64,000 bases of DNA. Origin: Minisyncoccota bacterium (GTDB lineage Bacteria > Patescibacteriota > Minisyncoccia > Phycocordibacterales > UBA9973). Below are positions 13,033-18,505 of this stretch, one piece after another. The notes beneath the pieces were generated by a model that worked only from the letters and a program-made list of their open reading frames with translations, ran no database searches and was not told the origin of the DNA. Every line of letters begins with the position of its first letter. Positions within the stretch are counted from its first letter, which is position 1. Position numbers and translations under genes: made by a program. The stretch lies in NCBI GenBank assembly GCA_041665925.1, contig JBAYHW010000001.1, positions 11,282 to 75,281 of the forward strand, written 5' to 3'.

Positions 13033-13503
13033 ATGACAGATTCGAATATGGAAGTAAGTGATAGAGATATAATGTCTTTAGCTCTAAATGAAGCGATATC
13101 TGCTTTTGATAGGGGAGAGTGCCCCGTGGGTGCTGTCATAGTAAAAAATGGAATTATCATAGCAAAAACAAGCAATAGAGAAGAAGAGCTAAATGATCCT
13201 ACGGCTCACGCAGAAATTCTGGCACTAAGAGAAGCGGGTAAAATTCTCAATAAACACACTTTTCGTGACTGCGTAATCTATACAACCTTGTGGCCGTGCC
13301 CAATGTGCGCAAATGCTATGTTGAGAGCCAAAATTCCTAAAGTAATATGCGGAGCAAAATCTTTCAAATTCATCTACGAAGACACATTTAATCCCTCACA
13401 TGTGATTACAGAAGGACCAATTATGAATGATGAATGCAGGGATATCTTTGTTAAATGGGCAAAGAAAACAAACAGAGAGTTTATTTTAGAGGGTGATAGT
13501 TAA
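13033..13503 (+). CDS. tadA: tRNA-specific adenosine deaminase
   Basis: 'HAEILALREAG' and 'PCPMCANAM' CDA zinc motifs. Confidence 0.8.
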   Translation: MTDSNMEVSDRDIMSLALNEAISAFDRGECPVGAVIVKNGIIIAKTSNREEELNDPTAHAEILALREAGKILNKHTFRDCVIYTTLWPCPMCANAMLRAKIPKVICGAKSFKFIYEDTFNPSHVITEGPIMNDECRDIFVKWAKKTNREFILEGDS

Positions 13504-16861: not shown

Positions 16862-17209
16862 TTATTTCTTCTTAGCGTCATCGGCTGTAGCTGTTGCAGA
16901 TTTTGCTTGTGCAATTTCAGCTTCTTTTTTCTTCATTTCTAATTCTTTCTGCATCTTTCCTCCGTGTTTCATAAATTTCTTTGTTGGTGAAAATTCTCCA
17001 AGTCTGTGGCCCACCATATCTTCGGTGACGAGTACTTCTATGTGAGTCTTGCCGTTATAAACGCCGAAAGTAAAACCAAGCATCTCAGGAGATATCATAC
17101 AAGCGCGCTTCCAGGTCTTGACCATTGGTGTCTCAAGCGGATTTTTGCCAGCTATTTTTTTAAGTAGCCTTTCGTCAATATTTAATCCTTTTTTGATTGA
17201 TCTTGTCAT
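16862..17209 (-). CDS. rpsS: 30S ribosomal protein S19 (Lys/Ala-rich C-terminal extension)
   Basis: 'GKTHIEVLVTEDMVGHRLGEFSPTKKF'. Confidence 0.9.
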   Translation of the reverse strand: MTRSIKKGLNIDERLLKKIAGKNPLETPMVKTWKRACMISPEMLGFTFGVYNGKTHIEVLVTEDMVGHRLGEFSPTKKFMKHGGKMQKELEMKKKEAEIAQAKSATATADDAKKK

Positions 17210-17238
17210 AAAAAATAGCTCCTAACGAGCTTGGTTTT

Positions 17239-17266
17239 ATAATAGCAAATTTGGAAAATAAGTCAA
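17239..17266 (-). promoter_or_regulatory. rpsS promoter: TTGACT-N16-TATTAT, then SD AGGAG 9 nt before the ATG
   Basis: near-consensus sigma70 hexamers directly downstream of a terminator. Confidence 0.55.
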
Positions 17267-17268
17267 AT

Positions 17269-17335
17269 AAAAAGAAACGGGCCTCGATGTTGTCTCGAGG
17301 CCCGGGGTGGGAGGAGTTCAGGACCGCGCGGTCCT
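17269..17335 (-). terminator. double GC hairpin plus U-tract (AGGACCGCGCGGTCCT; GGGCCTCGA-n7-TCGAGGCCC-GUUUCUUUUU) ending the GC-island transcript
   Basis: 9-bp perfect GC stem followed by a T-run on the minus strand. Confidence 0.6.
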
Positions 17336-17364
17336 CAACTCTATCCCGGATGGTGCGGGGGGTC

Positions 17365-17529
17365 CTAGCGGGTATCGGAGCTGGACGCGGTGGAGCAGGC
17401 CATGTTGGCCTTGATCCGAGAGATGGACCGAGCGAACGGTGTCGCCTGGAACTTGTCCCTCGCGTGGGCCTCCTTGGCCTTTCTCGCGTTCTGCTCTTTG
17501 ATGGTTTCCCGAGAGGAGTGGTGGTTCAT
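17365..17529 (-). CDS. GC-rich 54-codon ORF with SD 'GAAGGGGG' 5 nt upstream (MNHHSSRETIKEQNARKAKEAHARDKFQATPFARSISRIKANMACSTASSSDTR); may instead be a structured RNA
   Basis: read from sequence; below the ORF-track cutoff; flanked by a terminator; ~65% GC in a 35% GC genome. Confidence 0.3.
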   Translation of the reverse strand: MNHHSSRETIKEQNARKAKEAHARDKFQATPFARSISRIKANMACSTASSSDTR

Positions 17530-17626
17530 GAAACCCCCTTCTTTCGTTTAGATCCGATTACTTACAGATCCGCTAAAACTATGCCACTTTTGGAAAATAA
17601 AGCAATAGAGTATGGGGAAAACAAAA

Positions 17627-17644
17627 AGCCCCCCTGCGGGGACT
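17627..17644. terminator. bidirectional intrinsic terminator (AAAAGCCCCCC-TGC-GGGGACTTTTTT) 20 nt after the rplB stop
   Basis: GC hairpin flanked by an A-run and T-run. Confidence 0.6.
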
Positions 17645-17665
17645 TTTTTAATTTTATTTATTTCT

Positions 17666-18505
17666 CTATTTGTTTTTTCCGGTCTTTCTGCGAGAGACGA
17701 TGAAGACGTTTGAATATTTCTTTGGTCCGCGAGTCTTTCTTCCACCTGTAACTTTACCCCACATAGTCTTCGGCCTCTTGGTTCCGCGTCCTTGTCTGCC
17801 TTCACCTCCTCCGTATGGATGGTCTACTGGGTTCATCGCTGTTCCGCGGACAGTCGGACGGATTCCTTTCCAGCGTGAACGTCCGGCCTTACCATAATTT
17901 TCCAAATGATGTTCTTCGTTTGATACAGTGCCGACAGATGCCCAGCAGTTTTCATTTATTTTACGAACTTCAGTAGAAGGCATTTTAAGGTTGGTGTATC
18001 CGTCAGCATTAGCCACTACTTGAGCAAATATTCCAGCTGAGCGCCCAATCTTCGCTCCGCCCATAGGCTTGATTTCAACGTTATAAACAAACGTTCCCAC
18101 AGGAATATTCTTTAATGGTAGTCTGTTACCTGCTGTAAGTGGAGCCTTTTCTGAAACTACAAATGAGTCCCCCATTTTTATAGATTTAGGAATGACTACA
18201 TACCTCTTCTCTCCATCCTTATATACAGCAAGTCCGATAAATGCACTTCGGTTTGGATCATATTCCACGGATTTTATTTTTGCAGGAATATCTTTTTTAT
18301 TATATAAAAAGTCCACATCTCGGTAAAGCCGTTTGTGCCCGGAGCCTTTGTGGCGCATAGTGATACGCCCAGCACTGTTTCTGCCGACAGAACGTCTAAA
18401 GCCATGAGTCAGAGACTTGGTCGGCGTAGATGTCGTGATGACTCCCCTGTAGCTCACATTGGTCATCTGTCTTCGTGATTTACTTGTAGGTTTATATGTT
18501 TTCAT
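17666..18505 (-). CDS. rplB: 50S ribosomal protein L2
   Basis: L2 sequence. Confidence 0.9.
   Translation of the reverse strand: MKTYKPTSKSRRQMTNVSYRGVITTSTPTKSLTHGFRRSVGRNSAGRITMRHKGSGHKRLYRDVDFLYNKKDIPAKIKSVEYDPNRSAFIGLAVYKDGEKRYVVIPKSIKMGDSFVVSEKAPLTAGNRLPLKNIPVGTFVYNVEIKPMGGAKIGRSAGIFAQVVANADGYTNLKMPSTEVRKINENCWASVGTVSNEEHHLENYGKAGRSRWKGIRPTVRGTAMNPVDHPYGGGEGRQGRGTKRPKTMWGKVTGGRKTRGPKKYSNVFIVSRRKTGKNK

What the first reader, a model, noticed from the sequence alone, without database searches (positions are those of the whole stretch)
17365..17529. Unannotated 54-aa GC-rich small ORF inside the island
An ORF lies on the minus strand below the ORF-track cutoff: ATG at 17529, SD GAAGGGGG 5 nt upstream, stop TAG at 17367..17365, followed immediately by a terminator. 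Its codon usage is GC-rich (CGG, GCC, GCG), unlike every neighbouring gene. The basic peptide is MNHHSSRETIKEQNARKAKEAHARDKFQATPFARSISRIKANMACSTASSSDTR. It does not match any ribosomal protein I recognise. The good SD, dedicated terminator and position inside the r-protein operon suggest either an expressed small protein or a regulatory leader peptide.
Basis: seen in the sequence. Interest (0 to 1): 0.5.

Follow-up and report, generated by a model that had tools for sequence, protein, structure and literature searches.

The report
Orphan GC-rich mini-gene between rplB and rpsS
The 54-codon reading frame is real and probably translated, but it is a one-genome orphan: the local occupant of a fast-changing spot between two ribosomal-protein genes, where related bacteria each carry a different, unrelated small basic gene.

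Summary
It lies in the only GC-rich island of the window, in the 456-nt rplB-rpsS spacer of a Nomurabacteria/Paceibacterota genome.

An open frame of this length is not surprising on its own: 22% of shuffled islands have one. Three other signals are:
- It is led by a Shine-Dalgarno sequence (SD; 1.1% of shuffles).
- GC at codon positions 1/2/3 is 0.44/0.54/0.85, against about 0.35 at position 3 in host genes (permutation p 2e-5).
- The periodicity starts at the ATG and fades shortly after the stop.

The unit is self-contained: extended -10 promoter, 5' stem-loop, SD, ORF, 3' hairpin, intrinsic terminator. It sits upstream of a separate, conserved rpsS promoter, so it is not a leader peptide.

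No homologue of the sense or antisense products was found in any protein search. No DNA match was found in the metagenome, viral, phage, plasmid or Rfam searches.

In 31 related spacers (66-1537 nt), SD-led small ORFs on the operon strand number 21, against 3.6 expected. Almost all are mutually unrelated. Some spacers hold toxin-antitoxin, GIY-YIG or DgkA genes instead.

Best reading: a strain-specific small basic protein gene in an accessory-gene hotspot. Its function is inferred only. A structured or dual-function RNA remains a serious rival.

The parts
17623..17648 (-). Intrinsic terminator after rplB. The hairpin core is 17642-17630, followed by a U-run. The mirrored A/T runs mean it could also act on the + strand.
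   Evidence: Terminator scan. Fold -17 kcal/mol, z -3.0.
17578..17605 (-). Mini-gene promoter: -35 TTGCTT (17605-17600), 16-nt spacer, extended -10 TGg (17586-17584), -10 CATAGT (17583-17578).
   Evidence: Read from the sequence. It aligns with the equivalent promoter in 9 related genomes, with TTG and TATTTT invariant. Only this genome has C at the first -10 base. It is 90% identical over 31 nt to L140. The consensus scan did not flag it, because only 3 of 6 bases match in the -35.
17550..17571 (-). 5' UTR stem-loop (7 bp), close to the predicted transcript start.
   Evidence: Fold. It is weak on its own (z -1.2). Analogous 5' hairpins precede the SD in L003, L086, L094, L113 and L126.
17534..17541 (-). 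Shine-Dalgarno sequence GAAGGGGG, 4 nt before the ATG.
17365..17529 (-). 54-codon ORF (ATG to TAG): MNHHSSRETIKEQNARKAKEAHARDKFQATPFARSISRIKANMACSTASSSDTR. pI 10.5, 6.1 kDa.
   Evidence: AlphaFold2 without an alignment predicts a helical hairpin, mean pLDDT 84.5.
17309..17347 (-). 3' UTR hairpin, with a 14-nt palindromic core at 17314-17341.
   Evidence: The whole 3' UTR has fold z -5.9.
17265..17304 (-). Intrinsic terminator of the mini-gene: 10-bp stem with 8 GC pairs (17304-17278), then UUUCUUUUUAUUU.
17239..17266 (-). Separate rpsS promoter, TTGACT-16-TATTAT, with TG upstream of the -10.
   Evidence: 10 of 12 matches. Conserved in all relatives. Its -35 and spacer form a 17-nt direct repeat (88%) with 17605-17589, 339 nt away.
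17217..17231 (-). Conserved hairpin in the rpsS leader (AGCUC-GUUAG-GAGCU) that contains the rpsS SD. It is context, not part of the mini-gene.
17390..17551 (+). Antisense 53-codon ORF. Its third codon positions coincide with those of the sense ORF, and its product is hydrophobic. This is the rival reading frame.
   Evidence: No homologue. No + strand promoter found.

Best explanation
The island is a self-contained, monocistronic mini-gene on the operon strand.

Its order is: extended -10 sigma-70-type promoter, about 45 nt of 5' UTR with a 5' stem-loop, SD, 54-codon ORF, 3' UTR hairpin, intrinsic terminator. It sits between the rplB terminator and the independent rpsS promoter.

It is the strain-specific occupant of an accessory-gene hotspot at the rplB|rpsS junction of Nomurabacteria. 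There the S10 operon is split. Nearly every related genome carries a different cargo at this point: one to four small, GC-rich, SD-led ORFs for basic hydrophilic peptides, or toxin-antitoxin, GIY-YIG or DgkA genes.

What is shown:
- the anatomy of the unit;
- the coding-type periodicity confined to the frame;
- its orphan status;
- the hypervariability of the site and the excess of same-strand SD-led small ORFs in relatives.

What is inferred:
- the RNA is made and the ORF is translated into a 6-kDa, pI 10.5 helical-hairpin protein;
- cargo is exchanged by recombination in the conserved flanks and repeated promoters;
- with low confidence, the protein acts by binding nucleic acid (ribosome, RNA or DNA) as a dispensable accessory factor.
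For: The frame itself:
- ORF and SD are present.
- GC1/2/3 is 0.44/0.54/0.85. The periodicity begins at the ATG and fades about 7 codons after the stop. Permutation p is 2e-5, and an SD-led ORF >=54 codons occurs in 1.1% of shuffles.
- It has the highest GC3 of all ORFs in the window.

Expression signals:
- The terminators and the rpsS promoter are on the same strand.
- The promoter aligns across 10 genomes.

The site in relatives:
- Spacer length ranges from 66 to 1537 nt in 31 relatives with >=83% identical L2.
- Apart from one near-identical pair, only the rpsS promoter/leader is shared between them.
- Sense SD-led ORFs >=30 aa number 21, against 3.6 +/- 1.9 in shuffles and 6 on the antisense strand.
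- Position 3 is the GC-richest in 14 of 24 of these ORFs.
- L140 (95% identical L2 over the 168 C-terminal residues present on its contig) has the same promoter driving an unrelated 85-aa ORF with GC3 0.81.
- In L008, two cassettes share a 62-nt promoter-to-SD segment (87%) and an 18-nt terminator tail (100%), but their ORFs are unrelated.
- HicA, PemK plus Phd, GIY-YIG and DgkA genes occupy the same site in other relatives.

The product: AlphaFold2 predicts a helical hairpin, pLDDT 84.5. pI is 10.5.
Against: - There is no homologue anywhere, so selection on the frame cannot be tested.
- The peptide has no Leu, Val, Gly, Tyr or Trp. That is unusual for a folded protein.
- GC1 is lower than GC2, which is atypical of genes.
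- The antisense frame shares the same third positions, so periodicity alone does not pick the strand.
- The ORF folds more stably than its synonymous permutations (z -2.5). The whole transcript is strongly structured (z -5.8), as an ncRNA would be.
- The first base of the -10 is C where 9 relatives have T, and the SD is weaker than the AGGAGG of most sister cargos.
- The AlphaFold2 model was made without an alignment and without a control.
- No expression data exist.
Confidence: 0.5

Rival explanations
1. It is a structured small RNA, or a dual-function RNA. The GC-rich transcript acts as RNA, and the ORF is incidental or secondary.
For: - GC-rich intergenic islands in AT-rich genomes are classic candidates for structured RNAs (my own knowledge).
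- The minus-strand fold has z -5.8, against -2.9 for the plus strand.
- The 3' UTR has z -5.9.
- The ORF is more stable than its synonymous permutations (z -2.5, p 0.017).
- An open frame of this length is expected in 22% of shuffles.
- Some sister cargos (L005, L087, L102, L017) have no convincing SD-led ORF.
Against: - No Rfam family matches, even at E <= 10. None matches in 20 related loci either.
- A three-base GC periodicity that starts at the ATG and fades shortly after the stop (p 2e-5) is not expected of a non-coding RNA.
- The SD is correctly placed.
- Same-strand SD-led ORFs are about six times over-represented in the class.
- There are no homologues, so no covariation support is possible.
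Confidence: 0.22
2. It is a recently acquired piece of foreign GC-rich DNA, possibly a gene fragment. It is carried passively in a recombination hotspot and has no function in this genome.
For: - GC3 is 0.85 in a genome whose genes have GC3 of about 0.35.
- It is a singleton in all the collections searched.
- The first base of the -10 is degenerate.
- Periodicity continues for 7 codons beyond the TAG to a second in-frame TAG, which could mean a recent nonsense mutation.
- The odd amino-acid composition fits a wrong-strand reading of a donor gene.
Against: - No donor was found among 15 billion proteins, for the sense frame or for either of the two antisense frames tested.
- The GC-rich segment is placed exactly between a native-type promoter with 5' UTR and a terminator.
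- The periodic region starts at the SD-led ATG.
- Sister genomes show the same architecture with other ORFs.
Confidence: 0.15
3. The functional frame is the antisense 53-codon ORF (17390..17551, +). It would encode a small hydrophobic membrane peptide like a type I toxin, with the minus-strand transcript acting as its antisense regulator.
For: - It shares the GC-rich third positions (GC3 0.79).
- Its GC1 is higher than its GC2, which is more gene-like.
- Its product has a roughly 22-residue hydrophobic stretch and GRAVY +0.47.
- The rplB terminator could act on both strands.
- Toxin-antitoxin modules occupy this site in relatives.
Against: - No sigma-70-like promoter was found on the + strand upstream of it.
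- The only SD is a weak GGAG.
- There are no homologues and no family hit in Pfam, PHROGs, NCBIfam or PADLOC.
- In relatives the SD-led ORFs are on the operon strand, 21 against 6.
Confidence: 0.06
4. It is a leader peptide or attenuator. Translation of the ORF would control read-through of the 17304-17278 terminator into rpsS and the genes downstream.
For: The order promoter, ORF, terminator, rpsS resembles an attenuator.
Against: - A strong, universally conserved rpsS promoter lies downstream of the terminator.
- Relatives with 66-170-nt spacers lack the unit.
- The stop codon is 60 nt from the terminator stem.
- The predicted 3' UTR structure is two independent hairpins taking 54% of the ensemble, with no alternative antiterminator apparent.
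- 54 codons is long for a leader peptide (my own knowledge).
Confidence: 0.04

Closest known systems
Lineage-specific small proteins encoded by short ORFs in bacterial intergenic regions
   Same: A <=60-codon ORF missed by annotation, with its own SD, promoter and terminator and no detectable family.
   Different: It lies inside the S10 ribosomal-protein operon. Its GC3 is 0.85 in a genome of 38% GC. It belongs to a site where each related genome has a different, unrelated small ORF.
Dual-function sRNAs (SgrS/SgrT, RNAIII/hld, SR1/SR1P)
   Same: A short, highly structured transcript with its own terminator that also carries a small SD-led ORF.
   Different: There is no conservation, no identified target, and no evidence of base-pairing function. 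Here the ORF takes up about half of the transcript.
Chromosomal integration hotspots between conserved core genes, and variable cassette regions such as bacteriocin-immunity regions or integron cassette arrays
   Same: The flanks are highly conserved (rplB, rpsS) and the content between them is strain-specific. Tandem units share end sequences but differ inside (L008). Toxin-antitoxin genes are among the cargos.
   Different: No integrase, attC site or transposase has been identified. The shared ends are a promoter with SD and a terminator tail, not recombination sites. The units are about 300 nt, and most encode tiny basic peptides.
Transcription-attenuation leader peptides and ribosomal-protein operon leaders (for example the S10 leader bound by L4)
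   Same: It lies upstream of ribosomal-protein genes, with a small ORF followed by a terminator.
   Different: A separate conserved promoter follows the terminator. The unit is absent from close relatives. There is no alternative antiterminator fold.
Type I toxin-antitoxin loci
   Same: There are fully overlapping sense and antisense small ORFs, one of them hydrophobic, at a site that holds toxin-antitoxin modules in relatives.
   Different: Promoter, SD and terminator evidence favours the hydrophilic strand. There is no known family and no + strand promoter.

Membership tests
Known ribosomal protein families | Sequence match to a Pfam or NCBIfam ribosomal-protein model. | tested here: not met
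   The 54-aa peptide matches no family in Pfam or NCBIfam at E <= 0.1. The exhaustive phmmer search gave no ribosomal protein.
Known ribosomal protein families | Conserved presence at the same locus across related genomes. | tested here: not met
   The island is absent from all 160 related loci. The spacer content differs in nearly every genome.
Leader peptide / transcription attenuator of the downstream operon | No promoter lies between the leader's terminator and the regulated gene, so both are on one transcript. | tested here: not met
   The promoter TTGACT-16-TATTAT at 17266-17239 lies between the terminator and rpsS. It is conserved in all relatives.
Leader peptide / transcription attenuator of the downstream operon | Mutually exclusive terminator and antiterminator structures coupled to ribosome position. 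| tested here: not met
   The 3' UTR folds into two independent hairpins that take 54% of the ensemble. The stop codon is 60 nt upstream of the terminator stem.
Any Rfam RNA family | A covariance-model match. | tested here: not met
   Nothing reached a gathering score in the island. The best island-region match in the permissive scan has E 0.74 and lies only on the terminator stem. There were no hits in 20 related loci.
Type I toxin-antitoxin | A small hydrophobic toxin ORF with its own promoter and an overlapping antisense RNA. | tested here: inconclusive
   A hydrophobic antisense ORF exists. No + strand promoter was found. There is no family match.
Integron gene cassette | An attC recombination site at the cassette end and an adjacent intI integrase with attI. 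| not tested
   The hairpins at cassette ends are followed by U-runs and read as terminators. No search for an integrase was made in the window.
Ankyrin repeat | A match to the Ank repeat models, and many homologous hits among the abundant Ank proteins. | tested here: not met
   Only one protein out of 1.84 billion representatives matched (P0002). Its E of 4.9e-6 comes from adding five weak repeats of the motif ARDKFQxTP. No Pfam Ank model hit at E <= 0.1.
rplB|rpsS mini-gene cassettes of Nomurabacteria (a class defined here, not a published family) | Same site and strand; the TTGCwTTATTTT...TGnTATAaT promoter after the rplB terminator; an SD-led small ORF; GC above the host's; its own terminator upstream of the rpsS promoter. 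| tested here: met
   The promoter is 90% identical over 31 nt to that of L140.

The most novel reading that the evidence does not exclude
The rplB|rpsS junction of Nomurabacteria could be a dedicated expression slot rather than an ordinary hotspot.

On this reading, roughly 300-nt cassettes share promoter, SD and terminator ends but carry unrelated, GC3-rich ORFs for tiny, very basic proteins. They would be swapped or generated at high rate by recombination between the repeated ends. The result would be strain-specific micro-proteins that act on the ribosome or on nucleic acids, or in episymbiont-host or phage conflict.

The 54-aa ORF would be one allele of this hypervariable system.
Probability: 0.15. 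Interest if true: 0.7.

Novelty: new variant of a known kind. Interest (0 to 1): 0.42.

Why it matters
For annotation, this is a probable small-protein gene that one annotation pipeline skipped, judging by the consecutive NCBI accessions. Another replaced it with a spurious 138-aa antisense call.

The larger point is the context. In a candidate phyla radiation (CPR) lineage with a streamlined genome, the otherwise invariant S10 operon is split at rplB|rpsS. The gap turns over faster than anything around it. It is filled with orphan, GC3-rich, basic mini-genes that share expression signals but not coding sequence.

If these are translated, they form an unexplored pool of strain-specific micro-proteins placed next to ribosomal genes. 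If they are not, the site is a source of novel structured RNAs.

Either way the locus is a compact, testable case for how orphan small genes arise and are exchanged. It may also serve as a strain-level marker flanked by universal genes.

Tried and rejected
Homologue searches that found nothing usable:
- Exact look-up of the peptide on contigs.
- Word-based protein searches with the sense peptide and the antisense 53-aa product found nothing. The antisense 138-aa ORF found only itself.
- Back-translated scans of JGI metagenomes and IMG/VR with the peptide: pattern matches, but no relative.
- Exhaustive phmmer search: one ankyrin-repeat protein through a short repeated motif, judged to be chance.
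- blastn and tblastn against plasmids and phages. A sister cargo was also tried against phages.
- Pfam, PHROGs, NCBIfam and PADLOC, for the peptide, its antisense partner and a sample of sister cargos. Only sub-threshold noise appeared, for example L34e at E 0.014 for one L140 peptide.
- Rfam at gathering and permissive thresholds.
- Foldseek of the AlphaFold2 model against the PDB: 0 hits.

Other lines that led nowhere:
- I looked for an independent strain carrying the island through identical S19, L22 and L23. The second contig is the NCBI copy of the same MAG, which carries identical L2 and S19.
- All-against-all comparison of sister cargo peptides: only L095 and L101 are related.
- Three literature searches found no description of this locus.

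Rejected explanations:
- 6S, SRP, RNase P or tmRNA: no Rfam match, and relatives have no equivalent at the site.
- Assembly chimera: the insert is flanked by syntenic genes and native signals, and relatives show the same architecture.

Full report
**Where the finding lies.** The window is a Nomurabacteria/Paceibacterota (candidate phyla radiation, CPR) genome. NCBI names the L2 protein as coming from a "Candidatus Paceibacterota bacterium" MAG. The closest GTDB species is Nomurabacteria GW2011_GWB1_43_19, with 94% identical L2. The S10-spc ribosomal-protein operon runs on the minus strand. rplB occupies 17666-18505 and rpsS 16862-17209, leaving a 456-nt spacer. In most bacteria this spacer is about 20 nt, as in the outgroup loci L076-L082. 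The spacer holds the only stretch of the 64-kb window that reaches 60% GC over 100 nt: 17261-17528, with a maximum of 70%, against 38.4% for the window.

**Checking the observation.** The ORF is exactly as described: ATG at 17529, TAG at 17367-17365, and the same 54 residues.
- The SD AAGGGGG (17540-17534) ends 4 nt before the ATG.
- The terminator is real: a 10-bp stem with 8 GC pairs at 17304-17278, then UUUCUUUUUAUUU. It begins 60 nt after the stop, and a second strong hairpin lies at 17347-17309. Together the two hairpins give the 3' UTR a fold z-score of -5.9.
- NCBI gives L2 and S19 consecutive accessions, which implies that no CDS is annotated between them.
- The ENA gene call for the same contig is a 138-aa antisense ORF.

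**Is it more than chance?**
- Length alone is not. GC-rich sequence has few stop codons, and 22% of dinucleotide shuffles of the island contain a sense ORF of >=54 codons.
- An SD-led ORF of that length occurs in only 1.1% of shuffles.
- The frame carries a striking codon signature. GC at positions 1/2/3 is 0.44/0.54/0.85, while six neighbouring genes have GC3 of 0.34-0.38. Permutation p is 2e-5.
- This is the highest GC3 of any ORF >=25 aa in the window. The runner-up is its own antisense partner.
- In sliding windows the periodicity switches on at the ATG. It fades about 7 codons after the TAG, at a second in-frame TAG.
- A non-coding RNA is not expected to show this. So the segment is, or recently was, protein-coding in this phase.

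**Which strand is expressed?** A 53-codon ORF on the + strand (17390-17551) has its third positions on the same bases, so periodicity cannot choose between the strands. That ORF would encode a hydrophobic peptide. The context favours the minus strand.
- Both terminators and the rpsS promoter are on the minus strand.
- No + strand promoter was found.
- A minus-strand promoter can be read 45 nt upstream of the SD: TTGCTT, a 16-nt spacer, then TGgCATAGT at 17605-17578.
- The consensus scan missed this promoter, but it aligns with the equivalent element in nine related genomes. TTG and TATTTT are invariant and the -10 is TATAAT-like. It is 90% identical over 31 nt to that of L140.
- Only this genome has C at the first -10 base, so its promoter may be weakened.

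**RNA structure.** The predicted transcript, about 17572 to 17265, folds well. Its z-score is -5.8, against -2.9 for the opposite strand. Much of this comes from the 3' UTR. The ORF itself is somewhat more stable than synonymous-codon permutations of itself (-57.0 against -47.6 +/- 3.7 kcal/mol, z -2.5). An RNA-level role therefore cannot be excluded.

**Homologues.** None was found.
- The word-based protein searches found nothing for the sense peptide or the antisense 53-aa product. The antisense 138-aa ORF found only itself.
- Scans of JGI metagenomes and IMG/VR with the peptide found no relative.
- Searches of phage and plasmid collections found nothing.
- Pfam, PHROGs, NCBIfam and PADLOC gave no hit, and neither did Rfam.
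- The exhaustive phmmer search of 1.84 billion representatives returned a single ankyrin-repeat protein. Its E-value comes from adding five weak matches to the motif ARDKFQxTP. No Ank model matches the peptide, so I treat this as chance.
- The other contig with identical S19 and L22 is the NCBI copy of the same MAG, which also carries the identical L2.

**The site in related genomes.** Scans with L2 gave 160 related loci.
- Among 31 complete spacers from genomes with >=83% identical L2, the length ranges from 66 to 1537 nt.
- Pairwise blastn finds almost nothing shared except the last ~110 nt, which are the rpsS promoter and a leader hairpin. The one exception is a near-identical pair.
- The short spacers have only the rpsS promoter.
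- Seventeen of the 31 carry GC-rich inserts built like this island: a promoter of the same type, often a 5' hairpin, a strong SD (usually AGGAGG), a small ORF, one or two hairpins and a terminator. These units occur one to four times in tandem.
- SD-led ORFs of >=30 aa on the operon strand number 21. Shuffles give 3.6 +/- 1.9 (maximum 10 in 200), and the antisense strand has 6.
- Position 3 is the GC-richest in 14 of 24 of these ORFs, and position 2 the poorest in 14 of 24.
- The peptides are hydrophilic and very basic. They are mutually unrelated except for L095 and L101.
- L140, the closest locus (95% identical L2 over the 168 C-terminal residues on its contig), has the same promoter followed by an unrelated 85-aa ORF with GC3 0.81.
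- In L008, two cassettes share 62 nt from promoter to SD (87%) and an 18-nt terminator tail (100%). Similarity drops to a background level at the start codon.
- Other relatives hold AT-rich conventional genes at the same place: HicA, PemK plus Phd/YefM, GIY-YIG and DgkA.

So the junction is an accessory-gene hotspot, and the island is one strain's cargo. In this window the unit is bounded by a 17-nt direct repeat (88%), formed by the -35 and spacer of its own promoter and of the rpsS promoter, 339 nt apart. Recombination between the two copies would delete the unit and leave one hybrid promoter. That last point is inference.

**The product.** It would be 6.1 kDa, with pI 10.5, net charge +6 and GRAVY -1.12. 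It has no Leu, Val, Gly, Tyr or Trp. AlphaFold2, run without an alignment, predicts a helical hairpin (helices 10-28 and 31-46, mean pLDDT 84.5). The model has no Foldseek match in the PDB. Nucleic-acid or ribosome binding is a guess. It rests on the charge, on the even more basic sister peptides and on the gene's neighbourhood.

**Verdict.**
- Small expressed protein is the best reading (about 0.5).
- Leader peptide is rejected, because a conserved promoter separates the unit from rpsS and close relatives lack the unit.
- Live rivals are a structured or dual-function RNA (about 0.2), a passively carried foreign fragment (about 0.15) and the antisense hydrophobic ORF (about 0.06).
- As a single ORF this is a modest find.
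- The fast-changing mini-gene site within a core ribosomal operon is the more interesting result. I did not find it described in the library searched.

Noticed in passing
window 17217-17231 (minus strand); equivalent position in L003-L161: The rpsS leader carries a conserved 5-bp hairpin, AGCUC-loop-GAGCU, followed by a U-run, about 10 nt after the -10. Some relatives show compensatory changes (GGCUC...GAGCC in L084, L091 and L161). In this window its loop and 3' arm contain the rpsS SD. It could be an attenuator or an autoregulatory protein-binding site.
   Followed up: partly
L003-L162, spacer between rplB and rpsS: The S10 operon is split at rplB|rpsS across Paceibacteria. The spacer runs from 2 nt in outgroups to more than 2.4 kb. 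Its cargos include HicA, PemK plus Phd, GIY-YIG and DgkA genes, and proteins of 250-280 aa encoded on the opposite strand.
   Followed up: partly
L008 3422-3708 and 3987-4284: Two tandem cassettes share a 62-nt promoter-to-SD segment (87%) and an identical 18-nt terminator tail, CCCCCATCACTATTTTTA, but their ORFs are unrelated. Similar tails occur in L005, L087 and L091.
   Followed up: partly
window 13033-13503 (+ strand): A 156-aa cytidine/deoxycytidylate-deaminase-type gene (motifs HAE...PCPMC; Pfam dCMP_cyt_deam_1 on the ENA call) lies on the opposite strand, between rplE and the 61-aa zinc-type rpsN. This is a second interruption of the ribosomal-protein cluster.
   Followed up: no
window 17251-17703 (+ strand); L001 2507-2923: The ENA gene call for this contig is a 138-aa antisense ORF spanning the island. 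Its codon position 1, not position 3, falls on the GC-rich bases, and it has no homologue. It is probably a false gene call caused by the lack of stop codons in GC-rich DNA.
   Followed up: yes
window 17534-17538 and about 17357-17362 (minus strand): In the minimum-free-energy fold of the whole transcript, the SD G-run pairs with the C-run just after the stop codon (UAGGACCCCCCG). This would close the ORF into one long hairpin. The pairing is absent from the centroid structure, so it is uncertain.
   Followed up: no
peptide residues 20-32 (window about 17472-17434): The motif ARDKFQATPF resembles the junction of ankyrin repeats (NARDKxGxTPL). It produced the only phmmer hit. I judged it to be chance, but it could be a trace of a donor gene.
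   Followed up: yes
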